Virus record (IMG/VR): IMGVR_UViG_2740892422_000009
Span: 1 to 7,771 of that record
Origin: a virus
Lineage: Duplodnaviria > Heunggongvirae > Uroviricota > Caudoviricetes
Direction: 5' to 3' (one strand)
Length of the DNA stretch: 7,771 bases
Under the pieces are notes generated by a model. It was not told the DNA's origin. It saw only the letters and a list, made by a program, of their open reading frames with translations, and did not search any database. The stretch's first letter is position 1; each line of letters starts with the position of its first letter. Shown here piece after piece: positions 1 to 7,660 of the stretch. Position numbers and translations under genes: made by a program.

Positions 1-201
1 TTACCCATTGGCGCGGCTTAAGAGCTTATTTTTGAATTCACAATGGTCACGATATAACCATCTTGCTCGTCCGTGGATAACTTTGGCTTTAGGCAGGTCG
101 CCGGACTTAATCCGGTCATAGATGAAGGTCTTACCGAAGCCAGTATCAGCCATGATGAATTTCAAATCAACCAGTGAATCAGGCTGTAGTTCGTGTTGCA
201 T
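1..201 (-). CDS. AlpA-family helix-turn-helix protein, putative excisionase or prophage regulator (66 aa)
   Basis: Complete ORF: ATG at 199-201, TAA at 1-3 (minus strand). GGAG lies 7 nt upstream of the ATG. The protein (…IMADTGFGKTFIYDRIKSGDLPKAKVIHGRARWLYRDHCEF…) fits the AlpA / small excisionase pattern as I recall it (TG.s..tiY......g.fP.p.k.g.r...W...e...w). Position at the distal end of the pL operon matches where lambdoid phages carry xis. Confidence 0.6.
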   Translation of the reverse strand: MQHELQPDSLVDLKFIMADTGFGKTFIYDRIKSGDLPKAKVIHGRARWLYRDHCEFKNKLLSRANG

Positions 202-246
202 GAGTGCTATCTCCGGATAGGGAATCGAACCTGCAAATCAGGCAAT

Positions 247-266
247 AAAAAACCGCCATCAGGCGG
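247..266 (-). terminator. Intrinsic terminator-like hairpin between the 142-aa ORF and the excisionase-like gene
   Basis: Plus strand reads aaaaaa-CCGCC-atca-GGCGG. On the minus strand this is a 5-bp GC stem, 4-nt loop, followed by a run of six U. Confidence 0.45.
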
Positions 267-438
267 ATTGGTGTTCTTTCAGTTCTTCAATTCGAATATT
301 GGTTACGTCTGCATGCGCTATCTGCGCCCATATCATCCAGTGGTTATAGCAGTCGTTGATGTTCTCTGCTTCGATAACCCTGTTGAATGGCTCTCATTCC
401 ATTCACCTGTGACTCGGAAGTGCATTTATCATCTCCAT

Positions 439-463
439 AAAACAAAACTCGCCGTAGCGAGTT
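439..463 (-). terminator. Intrinsic terminator-like hairpin downstream of the 142-aa ORF
   Basis: Plus strand 446-463 is AACTCGC-cgta-GCGAGTT (7-bp stem, 4-nt loop). On the minus strand it is followed by UUUUGUUUU (complement of plus 439-447). It lies about 45 nt after the ORF stop at 509. Confidence 0.5.
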
Positions 464-508
464 CAGATATAATTTCCACCAAAGGCAGTAGTTGCTTGAT
501 GCTAAGAA

Positions 509-937
509 TTATTCAATATCTATTCCTGTAATATCTTTTATCTTTTTCCTTGCAAAGCCTTTTGCTAGTGATTTTGAAACACTCATAAGTGTACTAATTC
601 CCTCATCCTTAAAGTTTGTTTTTATAGCTTGCCAGACATCCTTTTGACGTAAGTCAGCAATAAAATCATGCCCTCTTGCTGTCAACCTCAGTGGTACTTC
701 GATCCAACTATATCCAACACCTTCCCCTAACGCTTTGGACATTATATGACCGAACCCAGGTTTTCCATCAACCCTGACTATTAATTCGTAGTCACATAAT
801 AATCGCATATGGAAAATAAAATCTTGGTCATATCTATTAAAGCCATTATCCTCTAGTTCACTAAGCATCGTGTCAGGGCCACGAGTTTTTTCGAATGCGA
901 TAAGTAGATCTTTTAGATATTGCTGGTCTAATTTCAT
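509..937 (-). CDS. Hypothetical protein, A+T-rich accessory (moron-like) gene (142 aa)
   Basis: ATG at 935-937 is preceded by GGAGG with a 5-nt spacer. The ORF is visibly A+T-rich compared with the exo/bet core. The protein has no motif I can assign; the N-terminal MKLDQQYLKDLLIAFEK loosely recalls small DUF-type prophage proteins, but that is not verified. Confidence 0.6.
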   Translation of the reverse strand: MKLDQQYLKDLLIAFEKTRGPDTMLSELEDNGFNRYDQDFIFHMRLLCDYELIVRVDGKPGFGHIMSKALGEGVGYSWIEVPLRLTARGHDFIADLRQKDVWQAIKTNFKDEGISTLMSVSKSLAKGFARKKIKDITGIDIE

Positions 938-947
938 TGCCGCCTCC

Positions 948-959
948 GTGACATGTCAC
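948..959. promoter_or_regulatory. Perfect 12-bp palindrome GTGACATGTCAC directly 5' of the 142-aa ORF ribosome-binding site
   Basis: Plus 948-959 equals its own reverse complement. It sits in the 28-bp gap between the 112-aa and 142-aa ORFs and abuts the GGAGG Shine-Dalgarno. It could be an operator or an mRNA hairpin. About two perfect 12-bp palindromes are expected by chance in a window this size, so support is weak. Confidence 0.25.
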
Positions 960-965
960 AGAGAT

Positions 966-1304
966 TTATATCATTAATTTTGTTTCGTGCCAGCCTTTGG
1001 TCACCCAGCATTGTGAGTCACCATTACACGGGCATGAATTAACAGGAACTCTCTCGCCGCACTTACCGCAACGTTTTCTGCTGATCGATTTTATACGCCA
1101 GCGCACACGTGCATCATCCTGGCGGCTCAGTAACGCGATGTACTCACCAAACTCGCAAGGCGCACGCCTGAAACGACGCGTGGCACAGTTACGCTCCAGC
1201 ATTTCAATTTCCTGAGCATCAAGTACAAGCTCCAGCTTACGCATACCGGATGATGCTTGCTTGGCTCTCTGATCGGCTTTGTGCTCTGTTGCTGATTTAG
1301 CCAT
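966..1304 (-). CDS. Hypothetical protein with C-terminal Cys-rich putative zinc-ribbon motif (112 aa)
   Basis: ATG at 1302-1304 is preceded by AGGAAAAGCAGA. The C-terminus carries C-x2-C-x8-C-x-C-x5-C (…RCGKCGERVPVNSCPCNGDSQC…), preceded by an Arg-rich helical region, suggesting a small zinc-binding nucleic-acid-binding protein. No family assigned. Confidence 0.5.
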   Translation of the reverse strand: MAKSATEHKADQRAKQASSGMRKLELVLDAQEIEMLERNCATRRFRRAPCEFGEYIALLSRQDDARVRWRIKSISRKRCGKCGERVPVNSCPCNGDSQCWVTKGWHETKLMI

Positions 1305-1345
1305 TCTGCTTTTCCTGCATCAGGAGAAAGACAATCATGGCGGCG

Positions 1346-1447
1346 CGGATACTTCCGGTATCTTTTTACGCGATATTCTCCTTCAATGGCACATACAAGA
1401 AGAGAGCCATCAACAGGAGTGATTGAGGAATCGACAACCAGCAACGC
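1346..1447 (-). pseudogene. Remnant of the C-terminal part of an S24-peptidase (UmuD / LexA / cI-like) gene
   Basis: The minus-strand frame directly after an in-frame TAA (1448-1450) reads ALLVVDSSITPVDGSLLVCAIEGEYRVKRYRKYP. This resembles the recalled UmuD segment [34 protein letters not shown]. There is no ATG (the six-frame track starts it at a TTG), no catalytic Ser/Lys region upstream, and the similarity stops after about 34 codons. Confidence 0.35.
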
Positions 1448-1597: not shown

Positions 1598-2212
1598 TTA
1601 TCTAAAAGTCTTTCCACTTTTAACATCTAGGTATATTCTGTTCGACAACGTCATTCCTCCGCAATATGTGAAATAGATGTTTTCACCCTTATTGCTTGAT
1701 GCCATCCACCCTCCGATTTCCTTAAAATCGCTTTCCGTGCAGACCCCTTCATTTATTAACTTCCTAGCTGCCGAAGAAAACTCTTTTTTGTATATACGGT
1801 AGTCATCAGATCCTTTGATTAAAGTATCATCTCCGCTCGCATTTTCAGCAGGATCTGATGGCCTTTCACTGCTAAGATCACTAAGTTTAACCCATTCTGA
1901 AAACTTGCCATTAACGATTCCATTTTTTCTTGTGCAGGATTTATTACCTTCTTTAATATATTCGCTTTCCCCTCCAACACATGAGGCTGAATATGGCTCA
2001 GTTATACGAACCCATTCACCTTTTTTTTCTAGAAAATCTACGCCTTCCCTGAAAAATAGTTTCCCAGCCACTCCACATTTACTTGAAGGGCAGGTATGTC
2101 TTTCCGTTCGATCAACAACAACCCATAGTTTTGATTCATTTTTTGCCATTGCCGATGGTATTTGAGATGAGACAATTAACGTAAGCCCTAAAATTAGTAT
2201 TGATTTTTTCAT
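1598..2212 (-). CDS. Secreted or periplasmic hypothetical protein with Sec signal peptide (204 aa)
   Basis: ATG at 2210-2212 is preceded by AAGGAAAT. The N-terminus MKKSILILGLTLIVSSQIPSAMA|KNE has a basic n-region, a hydrophobic core and an AxA signal-peptidase-I site; there is no lipobox Cys. The mature part has several Cys and two W-containing segments that might be SH3-like repeats (speculative). Moderately A+T-rich. Confidence 0.65.
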   Translation of the reverse strand: MKKSILILGLTLIVSSQIPSAMAKNESKLWVVVDRTERHTCPSSKCGVAGKLFFREGVDFLEKKGEWVRITEPYSASCVGGESEYIKEGNKSCTRKNGIVNGKFSEWVKLSDLSSERPSDPAENASGDDTLIKGSDDYRIYKKEFSSAARKLINEGVCTESDFKEIGGWMASSNKGENIYFTYCGGMTLSNRIYLDVKSGKTFR

Positions 2213-3562: not shown

Positions 3563-3717
3563 ACAGCTCCCCGTTTATTATTTATCTCCTCAGCCAGCCG
3601 CTGTGCTTTCAGGGGATTTCGGGTAACAGAAAGGCCGGGAAATACCCAGCCTCGCTTTGTAACGGAGTAGACGAAAGTGATCGCGCCTACCCGGATATTA
3701 TCGTGAGGATGCTTCAT
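3535..3717 (-). CDS. Lambda orf60a-like small protein (60 aa)
   Basis: ATG at 3715-3717 overlaps the exo stop (TGA 3714-3716) as ATGA. The 183-nt length matches lambda orf60a as recalled. The six-frame track begins two codons earlier, at ATG 3721-3723. Confidence 0.55.
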
Positions 3718-4394
3718 CGCCATTGCTTCCCAAATACAAAACCAATTTCAGCCAGTGCCTCGTCCATTTTTTCGATGAACTCCGGCACCATCTCGTCAAA
3801 ACTCGCCATGTACTTTTCATCCCGCTCAACCACGACATAATGCAGTCCTTCACGCTTCATCCGCGGGTCATAGTTGGCAAAGTACCAGGCATCTTTTCGT
3901 GTCACCCACATGCTGTACTGCACCTGGGCCATGTAAGCCGACTTTATGGCCTCGAAACCACCGAGCCGGAACTTCATGAAATCCCGGGAGGTAAACGGGC
4001 ATTTCAGCTCAAGGCCATTGCCGTCACTGCATAAACCATCGGGAGAGCAGGCGGTACGCATACTTTCGTCGCGATAGATGATCGGGGATTCAATAACATT
4101 CACGCCGGAAGTGAACTCAAACAGGGTTCTGGCGTCGTTCTCGTACTGTTTTCCCCATGCCAGCGCCTTAGCATTAACTTCCGGAGCCACACCGGTGCAA
4201 ACCTCAGCCAGCAGGGTGTGGAAGTAGGACATTTTCATGTCAGGCCACTTCTTTCCTGAGCGGGGCTTTGCTATCACGTTGTGAACTTCTGAAGCGGTGA
4301 TGACGCCGAGCCGTAATTTGTGCCATGCATCATCCCCTTGTTCGACAGCTCTCACGTCGATCCCGGTACGCTGCAGGATAATGTCCGGTGTCAT
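3714..4394 (-). CDS. exo: Lambda exonuclease (Red-alpha), 5'->3' dsDNA exonuclease (226 aa)
   Basis: The translation [37 protein letters not shown]… matches phage lambda Exo as I recall it over its full 226 aa. Its start overlaps the bet stop (ATGA at 4391-4394), as in lambda. Confidence 0.96.
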
Positions 4395-5176
4395 GCTGCC
4401 ACCTTCTGCTCAGTGGCTTTCTGTTTCAGGAATCCAAGAGCTTTCACTGCTTCGGCCTGTGTCAGTTCTGACGATGCGCGAATGTCGCGGCGAAATATCT
4501 GGGAACAGAGCGGCAATAAGTCGTCATCCCATGTTTTATCCAGGGCGATCAGCAGAGTGTTAATCTCCTGCATGGTTTCATCGTTAACCGGAGTGATGTC
4601 GCGTTCCGGCTGACGTTCTGCAGTGTATGCAGTATTTTCGACAATGCGCTCGGCTTCATCCTTGTCATAGATACCAGCAAATCCGAAGGCCAGACGGGCA
4701 CACTGAATCATGGCTTTATGCCGTAACATCCGTTTGGGATGCGACTGCCACGGGCCGGTGATTTCTCTGCCTTCGCGGGTTTTGAATGGTTCGCGTCGGC
4801 ATTCGTCCATCCACTCGGTAACGCAGATCGGATGATTACGGTCCTTGCGGTAAATCCGGCATGTACAGGATTCATTGTCCTGCTCAAAGTCCATGCCATC
4901 AAACTGCTGGTTTTCATTGATGATGCGGGACCAGCCATCAACGCCCACCACCGGAACGATGCCGTTCTGCTTATCAGGGAAGGCGTAAATTTCTTTCGTC
5001 CACGGATTAAGGCCGTACTGGTTGGCAACGATCAGTAATGCGATGAACTGCGCATCGCTGGCATCACCTTTAAATGCCGTCTGGCGAAGAGTGGTGATCA
5101 GTTCCTGTGGGTCGACAGAATCCATGCCGACACGTTCAGCCAGCTTCCCAGCCAGCGTTGCGAGTGCTGTACTCAT
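4391..5176 (-). CDS. bet: Red-beta (Bet) single-strand annealing recombinase (261 aa)
   Basis: The translation [66 protein letters not shown]… matches lambda Bet as recalled, at the same 261-aa length, positioned between gam and exo. Confidence 0.96.
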
Positions 5177-6442: not shown

Positions 6443-6460
6443 AACCCGCCTGAGCGGGTT
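6443..6460 (-). terminator. Intrinsic terminator-like hairpin overlapping the stop codon of the novel ORF (tL1-like position)
   Basis: Plus strand AACCCGC-ctga-GCGGGTT is a 7-bp stem with a 4-nt loop. On the minus strand it is followed by UCAUUUUCAC. The TAA stop (6459-6461) of the 289/293-aa ORF lies inside the stem. Confidence 0.5.
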
Positions 6461-7328
6461 ATGACCACTTTTTGTTTGGATTTCGTTGGTGAGCGTGGTT
6501 TACAGGATTATTTGATATACCCCATAACTCTGACTCGCTTATCTCTACACGAGAGAAAGACCTGCTTTCTTTCAGTTCTTTTATAAACCTAGAACCTACG
6601 ATGACATCTATTGTCCCAGAAAGTTCTTGTAAAAGATCTTTGTTTTTTCTGAGGAAGAAAACATCTTCTTTATATTTAATTTTTACATAGAATTTATTCT
6701 GTATTTTTAATATATCAAAGCATGGCAGATATCTATATCCCTCATGCTTTCGCCACTGCTTAACAATTATAACATCTCTTTCATTTACTGCATTAATCAG
6801 CCCAAGACCAAGTATAGGTATGAATATTCTATTGTCTGCCGAAAGCGTACAATTATCACCACCAGGCAAATATGTATAAATCATGTCGGAATTTTTATAC
6901 GCATCAACGAATGCACGTAAGAATCGTACATATTTTTGCCATCCGTTTATACCAAATTTACCATATAAGTATTCTTTATTTGTTAGAAGAAAACTATTTG
7001 TATCAGGAGCCTTATCTACAGACCTGTCGATAAGATCTCCAACTACGTTTACAAAGTCAAAGACAGAGTTTAATAAGAACAATTGTCTTTCAGTCGGGCG
7101 AATTTCAATTATGTAGCCTGGATGAAGACGATATTGCATCTGCTTACGAAGTATACTGAACGCTTGGGTCCGGGCATCTGAAAGCAACTTCCTGTCGCCA
7201 TCGCCGTGAGCATTGTTTCTAATAAAACTGATATAATTTGCTAATTTTTCAGCCTCTTTTTTGTGTTTTTTTCGCTCTGATGCTGAGTCTATTGGTTTTG
7301 GTATGGACTTGTAATCAATTTTCTTCAT
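6459..7328 (-). CDS. Novel A+T-rich hypothetical protein in the N-to-ea10 hotspot (289 aa from ATG 7326-7328; 293 aa from ATG 7338-7340); candidate superinfection-exclusion or abortive-infection gene
   Basis: A long uninterrupted ORF of very low GC (6661-6720 has 9 G+C in 60 nt, against 38 in 60 for bet at 4741-4800). GAGG lies 6 nt upstream of ATG 7326-7328. The alternative ATG at 7338-7340 overlaps the N stop as ATGA. It occupies the slot held by ral/sieB in lambda but is unrelated to either. I see no Walker A motif, transmembrane helix or signal peptide. Confidence 0.7.
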   Translation of the reverse strand: MKKIDYKSIPKPIDSASERKKHKKEAEKLANYISFIRNNAHGDGDRKLLSDARTQAFSILRKQMQYRLHPGYIIEIRPTERQLFLLNSVFDFVNVVGDLIDRSVDKAPDTNSFLLTNKEYLYGKFGINGWQKYVRFLRAFVDAYKNSDMIYTYLPGGDNCTLSADNRIFIPILGLGLINAVNERDVIIVKQWRKHEGYRYLPCFDILKIQNKFYVKIKYKEDVFFLRKNKDLLQELSGTIDVIVGSRFIKELKESRSFSRVEISESELWGISNNPVNHAHQRNPNKKWS

Positions 7329-7336
7329 TACGTACC

Positions 7337-7660
7337 TCATGCCAATGGAATGGATTTCCCTTTAACCTTTTGTCTTCCTTGACAAGTTATACCGAACTCA
7401 CTTGGCTTGCTATACCAAACTCGATGATTCTTGCGCTCAATACGTTGCAGGTTGCTTTCAATCTGTTCGTGGTATTCAGCCAGCACCGTAAGGTCTATCG
7501 GATTCAGTGCGCTTTCTACTCGTGATTTCGGTTTGCGATTCAGCGAGAGAATAGGGCGGTTAACTGGTTTTGCGCTTACCCCAACCAACAGGGGATTTGC
7601 TGCTTTCCATTGAGCCTGTTTCTCTGCGCGACGTTCGCGGCGGCGTGTTTGTGCATCCAT
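7337..7660 (-). CDS. N: N antitermination protein (107 aa)
   Basis: From ATG 7658-7660: MDAQTRRRERRAEKQAQWKAANPLLVGVSAKPVNRPILSLNRKPKSRVESALNPIDLTVLAEYHEQIESNLQRIERKNHRVWYSKPSEFGITCQGRQKVKGKSIPLA. The arginine-rich boxB-binding motif and N-terminal two-thirds match lambda N as recalled, with substitutions clustered in the C-terminal third. The track ORF (144 aa) is an in-frame extension into the leader. TGA stop at 7337-7339. Confidence 0.95.
   Translation of the reverse strand: MDAQTRRRERRAEKQAQWKAANPLLVGVSAKPVNRPILSLNRKPKSRVESALNPIDLTVLAEYHEQIESNLQRIERKNHRVWYSKPSEFGITCQGRQKVKGKSIPLA

What the first reader, a model, noticed from the sequence alone, without database searches (positions are those of the whole stretch)
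247..1304. Two-gene accessory block (Cys-rich 112-aa ORF plus A+T-rich 142-aa ORF) bracketed by a palindrome and tandem terminators
The 112-aa ORF has an Arg-rich region plus a CxxC…CxC…C motif, suggesting zinc-dependent nucleic-acid binding. It is followed after 28 bp by the 142-aa ORF, whose strong Shine-Dalgarno abuts a perfect 12-bp palindrome (GTGACATGTCAC). Two consecutive terminator hairpins follow (439-463 and 247-266) before the excisionase-like gene. The arrangement resembles a self-contained regulator-plus-effector cassette, possibly a toxin-antitoxin or exclusion pair. This is inference only.
Basis: inference. Interest (0 to 1): 0.45.

Follow-up and report, generated by a model that had tools for sequence, protein, structure and literature searches.

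The report
Phage DNA-binding gene, its palindrome, passenger gene
The block is not a toxin-antitoxin pair but a mosaic junction: a decaying phage gene for a ribbon-helix-helix/zinc DNA-binding protein, the conserved 12-bp palindrome that travels with that gene family, and an independently mobile winged-helix passenger gene that appears to use the first gene's 3' end as its promoter.

Summary
The sequence features are real, but the layout differs from the description. The palindrome lies between the two genes. The two hairpins flank a frameshifted lambda p35 gene.

The 112-aa protein ("p112", phrog_536, no Pfam) is predicted to be ribbon-helix-helix plus a Cys4 zinc knuckle. The 142-aa protein is DUF2513, a MarR/PadR-like winged helix.

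A toxin-antitoxin or obligate pair is not supported:
- Most copies of each gene lack the other.
- Each is pseudogenised while its partner stays intact.
- Neither resembles a toxin.

The palindrome GTGACATGTCAC is ordinary by single-window statistics, yet it is the notable feature:
- It overlaps or abuts the p112 stop codon across the family, down to about 38% identity (N15 gp46).
- Its centre dinucleotide co-varies with the p112 beta-strand.
- Extra perfect copies sit beside terminators in epsilon15, phiV10 and TL-2011b.
- It is about 50-fold enriched in p112-carrying phages.

DUF2513 genes always carry a conserved 62-nt element: -35, -10, palindrome, SD. This holds even where p112 is deleted.

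Best reading: p112 binds this site, and DUF2513 is a moron under a promoter/operator in p112's 3' end. Binding and promoter activity are inferred, not shown.

The parts
966..1304 (-). p112: 112-aa gene of the phrog_536 family (no Pfam model). Predicted N-terminal helix + ribbon-helix-helix + Cys4 zinc knuckle + C-terminal helix.
948..959 (.). GTGACATGTCAC: conserved 12-bp palindrome of the GTGAC-N2-GTCAC family. Proposed cognate DNA site of p112.
   Evidence: Exact sequence. It overlaps or abuts the p112 stop codon whatever gene follows. N15 gp46 has GTGACTGGTCAC. There are extra perfect copies next to terminators in TL-2011b, phiV10 and epsilon15, against 0.003 expected per genome. Density is 5.3 per 100 kb in p112-carrying phages and 0.41 in control DNA. 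The centre dinucleotide co-varies with the p112 beta-strand. The site is degraded by 1 mismatch in 3 of 4 lineages that lost p112.
943..993 (-). Conserved cis element carried by DUF2513 genes. Predicted sigma-70 promoter: -35 CTGGCA at 988-993, 17-nt spacer, TG at 972-973, -10 TATAAA at 965-970. Then the palindrome at about +1 (948-959) and SD GGAGG (943-947). It overlaps the last 9 codons of p112.
   Evidence: The element is present upstream of DUF2513 in E. coli, E. mori, Yersinia, Cronobacter, C. freundii, Serratia and Pectobacterium, including loci where p112 is deleted. Homology begins at GGCTGGCA. The consensus scan flags CTGGCA-17-TATAGT at the homologous place in Serratia and Yersinia. 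Mean identity is 0.72, against 0.30 at four-fold sites of the adjacent gene. The TATAAA box is absent where p112 is followed by other DNA. Promoter activity is inferred.
509..937 (-). DUF2513 gene (142 aa): winged-helix protein with an extended wing and C-terminal helices. A+T-rich (36% GC), independently mobile moron-like gene.
435..464 (-). Rho-independent terminator-like hairpin (GAACTCGCTACGGCGAGTTT + TGTTTT), 45 nt after the DUF2513 stop. It lies in DNA shared with lambda, HK630 and HK022, upstream of p35.
   Evidence: Homology to lambda-type phages starts at about 473. HK022's annotated tL4 lies immediately beside the homologous position.
259..425 (-). Homologue of lambda p35/orf55, frameshifted here by a 1-nt deletion near 395.
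   Evidence: Three-frame translation and alignment to intact copies in Chlobot, HK630 and PK8568. Annotations.
243..266 (-). Rho-independent terminator-like hairpin (CCGCCTGATGGCGG + TTTTTT) whose loop holds the p35 stop codon.
   Evidence: Conserved in lambda-type phages. Annotated as a rho-independent terminator in HK140.
1305..1444 (-). Mosaic scar upstream of p112. About 58 nt are homologous to the 3' end of the gene that precedes p112 in TL-2011b (1305-1362). A HumD/UmuD-like gene fragment lies at about 1334-1444.
   Evidence: The TL-2011b match extends to window 1362. HumD/UmuD hits cover only part of the profile. RefSeq annotates an incomplete 'DNA repair protein' there.
1..201 (-). AlpA-type excisionase-like gene that follows the block.
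   Evidence: phrog_66 and a weak HTH_17 hit. PADLOC mad1 model hit, 7.6e-14.

Best explanation
The block is a recombination mosaic inside the accessory (ea/b) region of a lambda-like prophage. It is not a two-protein system.

(1) p112 belongs to a widespread, uncharacterised phage family (phrog_536, including epsilon15 gp49, phiV10 p55, TL-2011b gp20 and N15 gp46). The protein is a ribbon-helix-helix DNA binder fused to a Cys4 zinc knuckle. In its native setting it is the last gene of an early operon. Typically it sits just before terS/terL or xis.

(2) Its cognate site is the palindrome GTGAC-N2-GTCAC. One copy overlaps or abuts the gene's own stop codon. In epsilon15-type phages further copies sit beside the intrinsic terminators that close other transcription units. 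p112 therefore most likely controls transcription across operon boundaries, by repression, roadblock or modulation of termination.

(3) DUF2513 is a stand-alone winged-helix 'moron'. It inserted immediately after that palindrome and acquired a -10 box. It is now expressed from a sigma-70 promoter embedded in the last 30 nt of p112, with the palindrome at about +1 acting as operator. When p112 is made (early lytic transcription) it would modulate DUF2513. In a repressed prophage the promoter would run free.

(4) In this lambda-type lineage p112 is a decaying passenger, while its 3' end persists because it supplies the DUF2513 promoter. Transcription ends at the hairpin at 435-464.

Shown: the folds, the conservation, the distribution and the independent decay of the two genes. 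Inferred: p112 binding to the site, promoter activity, and the direction of regulation.
For: Folds:

The site travels with p112:
- The palindrome sits at the stop codon in about 95% of loci, whatever gene follows: terminator plus terS, a 75-aa gene, xis, DUF2513 or LexA-box genes.
- N15 gp46, at 38% identity, keeps the half-sites, the stop-codon overlap and the abutting SD.

The site behaves as a target of a trans-acting factor:
- Epsilon15 has 3 perfect copies, phiV10 has 2 plus 2 near-copies, and TL-2011b has 2 plus 1. All lie at the 3' ends of transcription units beside terminators. The expectation is 0.003 per genome.
- A Vibrio phage with a 36%-identical homologue has 4 sites, against 0.065 expected.
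- Site density is 5.3 per 100 kb in p112-carrying phages, against 0.41 and 0 in the two controls.
- DUF2513 is absent from epsilon15, phiV10 and TL-2011b, so it is not the binder.

Co-variation between protein and site:
- Beta-strand K-x-E: AT centre in 86 loci, never GC or GT; 10 further loci had no stop-codon site.
- Beta-strand E-x-R-x-R/K: GC or GT centre in 22 loci, never AT.
- The site decays by 1 mismatch in 3 of 4 lineages that lost p112.

Evidence for the promoter element:
- A 62-nt unit is retained upstream of DUF2513 in seven genera.
- Homology starts at the -35 hexamer in p112-less loci.
- Its identity is 0.72, against 0.30 at four-fold sites of the adjacent gene.
- The consensus scan flags the promoter in Serratia and Yersinia.
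- The TATAAA box is specific to DUF2513-linked junctions.
- A terminator follows the gene, both in the window and in Serratia.

Evidence for independence of the two genes. In Cronobacter the adjacent genes diverge discordantly (p112 dN 0.036, DUF2513 dN 0.32).
Against: - There is no experimental or docking evidence that p112 binds the palindrome.
- The co-variation rests on only 2-3 clades, and the site is physically linked to the gene. Shared descent alone could therefore produce it.
- One p112 subfamily ("...LMLTTL*", 17 loci) and the Vibrio homologue have no site at their stop codon. Copies do lie nearby.
- An operator at the 3' end of the regulator's own gene is unusual.
- The window's -10 box (TATAAA) fails the scan's T6 rule, and no promoter was flagged on the minus strand here.
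- In the window the palindrome also extends to a 9-bp RNA hairpin that includes the SD (-10.8 kcal/mol). An RNA-level role therefore cannot be excluded.
- The function of DUF2513 remains unknown.
Confidence: 0.55

Rival explanations
1. Type II toxin-antitoxin or abortive/exclusion pair. p112 would be an RHH antitoxin and autorepressor, DUF2513 the toxin or effector, and the palindrome the operator.
For: - The gene order (small RHH gene, then a second small gene 28 bp away) and the adjacency recur in E. coli, Cronobacter and Yersinia.
Against: - DUF2513 is intact without p112 in E. mori, C. freundii, Serratia and Pectobacterium. It is also intact in 9 E. coli-type loci where p112 has a stop codon or a truncation.
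- 57 of 59 species-level DUF2513 loci have no p112 at all.
- Most p112 genes are followed by a terminator and terS, or by other genes.
- DUF2513 has a MarR/PadR-like winged-helix fold, not a toxin fold.
- PADLOC finds nothing.
- The palindrome lies between the genes, not upstream of the pair.
Confidence: 0.05
2. The palindrome acts at the RNA level: as a hairpin that masks the downstream SD, couples termination of p112 translation to initiation of the next gene, or serves as a processing or termination signal. p112 would have an unrelated target.
For: - In the window the palindrome plus flanks fold into a 9-bp hairpin (-10.8 kcal/mol) whose 3' arm is the DUF2513 SD.
- The site repeatedly overlaps stop codons and lies 6-20 nt before start codons.
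- In the GC-centre clade, two copies form a strong hairpin (-26.9 kcal/mol, z = -5.2).
- Copies lie next to intrinsic terminators.
Against: - The core 12-mer alone gives only a 4-bp stem.
- The window hairpin has z = -1.6.
- The flanking pairing to the SD is not conserved in other DUF2513 loci.
- The conservation pattern (fixed half-sites, variable centre, no compensatory stem changes) is that of a dimeric protein site.
- The copy after the terL terminator lies downstream of the T-run, so it would rarely be transcribed.
Confidence: 0.15
3. The palindrome is recognised by something other than p112, for example a host nucleoid protein or another phage protein. Alternatively it is a recombination 'linker' that marks module boundaries, and its link with p112 is only positional.
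For: - The half-sites equal those of matS (GTGAC-RNY-GTCAC), the MatP site (PMC3116907, PMC3603311).
- One of the Vibrio phage sites is a 13-mer that fits matS.
- Mosaic breakpoints fall exactly at the palindrome.
- Divergence is discordant on the two sides of it in Cronobacter.
Against: - The 12-bp spacing differs from matS by one base.
- Prophages are reported to avoid matS (PMC3603311).
- The centre dinucleotide co-varies with the p112 beta-strand.
- The site decays where p112 is lost.
- Enrichment was seen in every p112-carrying phage examined.
- A pure recombination scar would not be kept perfect at three syntenic places in epsilon15 and phiV10.
Confidence: 0.15
4. p112 and DUF2513 are two cooperating DNA-binding regulators that act together, for example as a hetero-complex or a regulatory cascade, to control phage or host genes.
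For: - Both are predicted DNA binders.
- The adjacency is maintained over about 47-75% protein identity in three genera.
Against: - Each gene is lost independently of the other.
- Most family members of either protein are unpaired.
- DUF2513 alleles are swapped next to near-identical p112 genes.
Confidence: 0.07

Closest known systems
Ribbon-helix-helix regulators with palindromic operators (Arc/Mnt of P22, CopG, MetJ, NikR, PutA RHH domain)
   Same: - A short palindromic site of 10-12 bp.
- The beta-strand residues co-vary with the central bases of the site.
   Different: - No Pfam RHH model is met.
- p112 has an extra N-terminal basic helix and a C-terminal Cys4 zinc knuckle.
- The site lies at the 3' end of the regulator's own gene, overlapping its stop codon. 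It is also dispersed beside terminators rather than sitting at the gene's own promoter.
MatP/matS of enterobacteria (RHH protein; 13-bp site GTGAC-RNY-GTCAC)
   Same: - Identical half-sites, GTGAC and GTCAC.
- An RHH protein, with several dispersed copies of the site.
   Different: - The spacer is 2 nt rather than 3 nt.
- There is no sequence relationship (hhalign probability 0.3%).
- p112 lacks the four-helix bundle and coiled coil of MatP.
- It is phage-encoded and acts on phage DNA. The resemblance may be coincidental.
Morons of lambdoid phages (extra genes with their own promoter and terminator, inserted between conserved genes; concept of Hendrix and co-workers, cited from my own knowledge)
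   Same: For DUF2513:
- Atypical composition (36% GC).
- Presence/absence polymorphism at the lambda ea8.5 position.
- A predicted promoter upstream and a terminator downstream.
   Different: The predicted promoter is embedded in the coding 3' end of the neighbouring gene. It carries that neighbour's palindrome at the start site. The moron is therefore potentially wired to a phage regulator.
DksA/TraR-type C4 zinc-finger proteins (PF01258), including the lambda orf73-like gene at 2759-2980 in this window
   Same: The layout 'long helix, then CxxCG-xx-(L/I)P, then Cys' in the C-terminal half of p112. Weak profile hits to YbiI (E=0.044) and TraR (E=0.14).
   Different: - Below any significance threshold: hhalign probability 9.7% over 16 columns, and no Pfam hit.
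- The fourth Cys is displaced.
- There is no DxxDxA tip motif at an equivalent distance.
Late-gene switches placed at the end of early operons (lambda Q, P2 Ogr; cited from my own knowledge)
   Same: - In TL-2011b, phiV10 and epsilon15, p112 is the last early gene before terS/terL.
- It is small and zinc-binding.
- Its sites lie next to terminators.
   Different: There is no homology to the Q or Ogr families. No function has been tested. In epsilon15 an annotated repressor operator lies just upstream of terS (annotation, sequence).

Membership tests
Type II toxin-antitoxin module | The two genes co-occur as an obligate pair | tested here: not met
   - The pair is in 142 of 5426 E. coli genomes, against about 540 more with p112 alone.
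- 1 of 59 species-level DUF2513 loci has an adjacent p112.
- 59 of 80 viral p112 loci lack DUF2513.
Type II toxin-antitoxin module | The toxin gene is not maintained intact without a functional antitoxin | tested here: not met
   DUF2513 is intact while p112 has an internal stop or truncation in L006, L081 and L083-L089. It is also intact with p112 deleted in E. mori, C. freundii, Serratia and Pectobacterium.
Type II toxin-antitoxin module | The second protein has a known toxin fold or family | tested here: not met
   It has a MarR/PadR/TubR-type winged-helix fold. It matches only Pfam DUF2513. PADLOC finds nothing.
Type II toxin-antitoxin module | Growth inhibition by the toxin, relieved by the antitoxin | not testable with these tools
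   Requires expression experiments.
Ribbon-helix-helix (CopG/Arc/MetJ) superfamily | Beta-strand, helix, helix fold | tested here: met
   [not shown]
Ribbon-helix-helix (CopG/Arc/MetJ) superfamily | Match to a curated RHH sequence model | tested here: not met
   No Pfam family matches the window protein. Only 1-2 of 44 relatives touch RHH_1, RHH_5 or RepB-RCR_reg, at E = 0.01-0.07.
Ribbon-helix-helix (CopG/Arc/MetJ) superfamily | Dimer binds a repeated or palindromic DNA site through the paired beta-strands | tested here: inconclusive
   There is a conserved palindrome, and its centre co-varies with the beta-strand. There is no binding assay or complex model.
MatP/matS system | 13-bp site GTGAC-RNY-GTCAC | tested here: not met
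   The phage sites are 12-mers, GTGAC-N2-GTCAC. The matS consensus comes from PMC3116907 and PMC3603311.
MatP/matS system | Protein homologous to MatP | tested here: not met
   [not shown]
DksA/TraR C4 zinc-finger family (PF01258) | CxxC-N17-CxxC finger scoring above the Pfam threshold | tested here: not met
   No Pfam hit. PDB profile hits at E = 0.04-0.16. hhalign probability 9.7% against the window's own DksA-like protein.
DUF2513 (PF10711) | Score above the Pfam gathering threshold over the full domain | tested here: met
   42.7 bits against a cut-off of 29.6. Residues 2-115 match profile positions 1-100 of 100. Precomputed PF10711 hits are listed for nearly all of the 99 homologues.
MarR/PadR-type winged-helix regulators | Winged-helix fold with a C-terminal dimerisation helix | tested here: met
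   [not shown]
Moron (autonomous extra gene in a lambdoid genome) | Own promoter upstream and terminator downstream | tested here: inconclusive
   Terminators are found in the window at 435-464 and in Serratia. The promoter is predicted from conservation and a consensus scan only.
Moron (autonomous extra gene in a lambdoid genome) | Atypical composition and presence/absence polymorphism between otherwise collinear phages | tested here: met
   36.4% GC against 44.7% for the window. It occupies the place of ea8.5 in lambda and HK630. It is deleted in L090-L092.

The most novel reading that the evidence does not exclude
The phrog_536 proteins (epsilon15 gp49, phiV10 p55, N15 gp46 and this window's p112) and the dispersed GTGAC-N2-GTCAC palindromes form an undescribed phage system. 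In it a DNA-tethered RHH/zinc-knuckle protein acts at the intrinsic terminators that close transcription units. It would do so by enforcing or relieving termination, and so would set the early-to-late switch. Its site is a one-base-shorter version of the host's matS, which could mean interplay with, or evasion of, MatP.
Probability: 0.2. Interest if true: 0.75.

Novelty: new variant of a known kind. Interest (0 to 1): 0.5.

Why it matters
For this window, the result removes a tempting but wrong annotation (a toxin-antitoxin or exclusion cassette). It replaces it with a concrete picture of how a moron becomes wired into a phage. The passenger gene keeps exactly the 62 nt of its former neighbour that it needs for expression, while the neighbour itself decays.

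More broadly, it links a widespread protein family labelled only 'transcriptional regulator' to a specific 12-bp site. That family occurs in epsilon15-like podoviruses, N15/phiKO2 telomere phages, ZF40, and Yersinia and Vibrio phages. The site is unannotated even in the carefully annotated epsilon15 record. It sits beside terminators at three syntenic positions.

This gives an immediately testable handle on late-gene or operon-boundary control in these phages. For them I found no described late regulator in the searchable literature.

Tried and rejected
1. **cos-site idea.** The phiV10 record ends exactly at the TGA inside the palindrome. However, the record simply starts after the last gene's stop codon (CATGTTAC...). 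Its large terminase is annotated as PacB-like. Other records do not break there. I dropped the idea.
2. **MatP homology.** hhalign gives probability 0.3%. The resemblance is limited to the RHH fold and the half-sites.
3. **DksA/TraR membership.** Only marginal hits.
4. **Prophage repressor operators.** The operators annotated in epsilon15 are ATTACC-N5-GGTAAT, a different sequence.
5. **DUF2513 as the palindrome binder.** Rejected, because epsilon15, phiV10 and TL-2011b carry the sites but no DUF2513 gene.
6. **Defence-system models.** PADLOC finds nothing for either protein. Only the neighbouring xis-like gene hits a model, 'mad1'.
7. **Sequence search of the PDB with single proteins.** Nothing found.
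8. **Literature.** No paper in the library mentions DUF2513 or the 12-mer. Searches for N15 gp46 and epsilon15 gp49 gave nothing functional. A 'gp46' detected in lysogens of telomere phage NAR688 (PMC12042878) could not be matched to this family.
9. **Conserved partner of distant DUF2513 genes.** None; the largest neighbour cluster covers 3 of 51 loci.
10. **Technical failures.** A pattern search with the most remote p112 relatives failed because the alignment was too diverse. The first dN/dS attempts were flawed by indels and an unnoticed internal stop, and were redone.
11. **Naming the 435-464 hairpin as lambda tL3.** I recall tL3 lying in this region, but I could not confirm its coordinates. 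Only HK022 tL4 (adjacent) and the HK140 terminator (at the p35 stop) are documented.
Full report
**Setting.** The window is the leftward early/accessory region of a lambda-like E. coli prophage. All genes discussed lie on the minus strand.
- gam, bet (4391-5176) and exo (3714-4394), then small ea-type genes.
- A 204-aa lipoprotein-like ORF (1598-2212).
- The block in question.
- A lambda p35/orf55 homologue.
- An AlpA-type excisionase-like gene (1-201).

Phage Chlobot is 99% identical across the block. Identical 7771-base stretches exist in IMG/VR contigs.

**Checking the observation.** The ORFs, their 28-bp spacing, the GGAGG next to the perfect palindrome GTGACATGTCAC (948-959), the A+T richness of the 142-aa ORF and both hairpins are all present. 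Three corrections are needed.
- The palindrome lies between the genes, not around them.
- The hairpins are not tandem. Between them lies a 167-nt homologue of lambda p35, frameshifted here by a 1-nt deletion near 395 and intact elsewhere. The hairpin at 253-266 holds the p35 stop codon and is annotated as a terminator in HK140. The hairpin at 445-464 lies in lambda-homologous DNA next to HK022's tL4.
- A perfect 12-bp palindrome is expected about twice per window of this size. On its own it is not evidence of anything.

**The proteins.**
- *The 142-aa protein.* It is Pfam DUF2513. The model (pLDDT 93.7) is a winged helix with an extended wing and C-terminal helices. It is closest to MarR, TubR, HxlR and PadR regulators. 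No paper in the library mentions DUF2513.

**Is it a pair?**
- Only 142 of 5426 complete E. coli genomes carry both genes together. About 540 more carry p112 beside ASCH, NinX, DUF2591 or other genes.
- Among 59 species-level DUF2513 loci, one has an adjacent p112 homologue (Yersinia). One more has it 3.7 kb away.
- Among the 80 best viral p112 loci, only the near-identical E. coli lineage has DUF2513.
- Within that lineage, p112 has an internal stop or truncation in 9 loci with DUF2513 intact. DUF2513 is frameshifted in 2 loci and deleted in 3, with p112 kept.
- p112 is under strong purifying selection in its native contexts (omega 0.06-0.11). The window lineage shows omega 0.32 and substitutions at near-invariant positions.
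- Distant DUF2513 genes have no recurring neighbour.

These facts exclude an obligate pair. In particular they exclude a toxin that needs its antitoxin.

**Why the two genes are nevertheless found together.**
- Sampling diverged DUF2513 genes (60-76% identity) showed an intact p112 directly upstream in Yersinia and in two Cronobacter alleles.
- In E. mori, C. freundii, Serratia and Pectobacterium p112 is gone. About 62 nt of its 3' end remain, and homology begins at GGCTGGCA.
- This unit reads: -35 CTGGCA, 17 nt, (TG)n TATAAA/TATAGT, 5-6 nt, palindrome, GGAG, ATG.
- The consensus scan flags it as promoter-like in Serratia and Yersinia.
- It is 72% identical on average across loci whose adjacent four-fold sites are saturated (30%). 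The next 100 nt upstream are at the alignment baseline.
- The TATAAA box is present only in DUF2513-linked junctions. Elsewhere the p112 stop codon is itself part of the palindrome.
- A terminator follows DUF2513 both here and in Serratia.

I therefore read DUF2513 as a moron whose promoter sits in the 3' end of p112. Adjacent genes diverge discordantly in Cronobacter (p112 dN 0.036, DUF2513 dN 0.32). So the junction is also a recombination point.

**The palindrome.**
- It belongs to the p112 module. It overlaps or abuts the p112 stop codon whether the next feature is a terminator plus terS (46 loci), a 75-aa gene (26), DUF2513, an xis-like gene or a LexA-box gene.
- Diverged branches keep the half-sites and the stop-codon overlap but change the centre. 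One branch at about 40% identity has GTGAC-GC-GTCAC, often with a second partial copy 33 bp away. N15 gp46 has GTGAC-TG-GTCAC.
- The predicted DNA-reading beta-strand partitions cleanly with the centre. K-x-E goes with AT (86 loci with an AT centre, none GC or GT; 10 further loci had no stop-codon site). E-x-R-x-R/K goes with GC or GT (22 loci, never AT). Few independent clades are involved.
- The site is also dispersed. Epsilon15 has exactly three perfect copies: at the gp49 stop, after the terL terminator, and at the gp18 stop before its terminator. phiV10 has them at the same places. TL-2011b has a second copy abutting the terminator after ant.
- A Vibrio phage with a 36%-identical homologue has four sites, against 0.065 expected. 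One lies 19 nt before terS.
- Density is 5.3 per 100 kb in five complete p112-carrying phages. It is 0.41 in 493 kb of control DNA and 0 in 83 kb of related loci without intact p112.
- In lineages that lost p112, three of four copies have acquired a mismatch.
- DUF2513 is absent from epsilon15, phiV10 and TL-2011b, so it is not the binder.
- The epsilon15 repressor operators are a different sequence.

**Mechanism proposed.** p112 is the best candidate for the factor that recognises GTGAC-N2-GTCAC. In its native place it is the last early gene before terS/terL. There its sites flank intrinsic terminators. This suggests control of transcription across operon boundaries. Whether it represses, blocks or relieves termination cannot be decided here. 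In the window, the site would lie at about +1 of the DUF2513 promoter. p112, made from early lytic transcripts, could then modulate the moron. In a repressed prophage, or where p112 is a pseudogene, the promoter would be unregulated. An RNA-level role is a live alternative. The window's palindrome extends to a 9-bp hairpin that includes the SD (-10.8 kcal/mol, z = -1.6), but the extension is not conserved.

**Comparison with known systems.**
- It is a member of the RHH fold class by structure prediction only.
- DUF2513 is a bona fide PF10711 member and resembles MarR/PadR regulators by fold only.
- Nothing supports membership of TA, defence, Q or Ogr families.

**Verdict.** The features are real and the TA/exclusion reading is wrong. 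The p112/site association appears undescribed in the literature I could search. It is a new variant of a familiar theme, and it is readily testable.

Noticed in passing
window 259-425 (-), deletion near 395: The lambda p35/orf55 homologue is frameshifted by a single-base deletion (GGAATGGAGAG becomes GGAATGAGAG). It is intact in Chlobot, HK630 and E. coli PK8568. This could be a real pseudogene or a sequencing error in a G-run.
   Followed up: partly
window 1334-1444 (-): A fragment of a HumD/UmuD-like (peptidase S24) gene. It matches only profile positions 47-99 of 129 and lies just upstream of p112. RefSeq annotates it as an incomplete 'DNA repair protein'. It marks a mosaic scar.
   Followed up: partly
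window 1598-2212 (-): A 204-aa A+T-rich (38% GC) ORF. It has a signal-peptide/lipoprotein-like N-terminus, a weak SH3_3 hit and a full-length match to phrog_8310 (unknown function). It is probably another moron.
   Followed up: no
L255 (epsilon15) 2142, 19517, 39612; L253 (phiV10) 2262, 19493, 39101: Three syntenic copies of GTGACATGTCAC per genome, each next to a rho-independent terminator. Two of them overlap a TGA stop codon. They are not annotated in the otherwise richly annotated epsilon15 record.
   Followed up: yes
L168 (TL-2011b) 11577-11620; L255 (epsilon15) 12-27: Repeats of the prophage-repressor operator type (ATTACC-N5-GGTAAT) lie directly upstream of terS, downstream of the p112 terminator. 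The packaging/late operon therefore seems to be under direct repressor control in these phages.
   Followed up: no
L229, L233, L239: about 45-65 nt after the p112 stop: After the palindrome comes a TTGACG -35 hexamer and a near-consensus LexA box (TACTGTGTATTTATACAGTA). A small gene follows. This is an SOS-controlled module at the same junction.
   Followed up: no
L256 (Vibrio phage K233) 19491: One of the four sites in this phage is a 13-mer, GTGACACCGTCAC. It fits the host matS consensus GTGAC-RNY-GTCAC exactly and overlaps a stop codon. Prophages are reported to avoid matS (PMC3603311).
   Followed up: no
L156-L159 versus L162-L164 (Cronobacter prophages): Nearly identical p112 genes (dN 0.036) sit next to very different DUF2513 alleles (dN 0.32), both followed by terS/terL. 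This indicates allele replacement by recombination at the palindrome/promoter junction.
   Followed up: partly
L090-L092 (IMG/VR contigs): A deletion fuses codon 105 or so of p112 to the 3' end of lambda p35. It removes the palindrome, DUF2513 and most of p35. The chimeric ORF ends at the p35 terminator.
   Followed up: partly
window 1-201 (-): The AlpA-type excisionase-like protein hits the PADLOC model 'mad1' (E=7.6e-14). This is probably just shared AlpA/HTH_17 homology rather than a defence role.
   Followed up: no
window 6459-7340 (-): A 293-aa very A+T-rich ORF of unknown function lies between the kil/cIII-side genes and the N-side region. I did not examine it.
   Followed up: no
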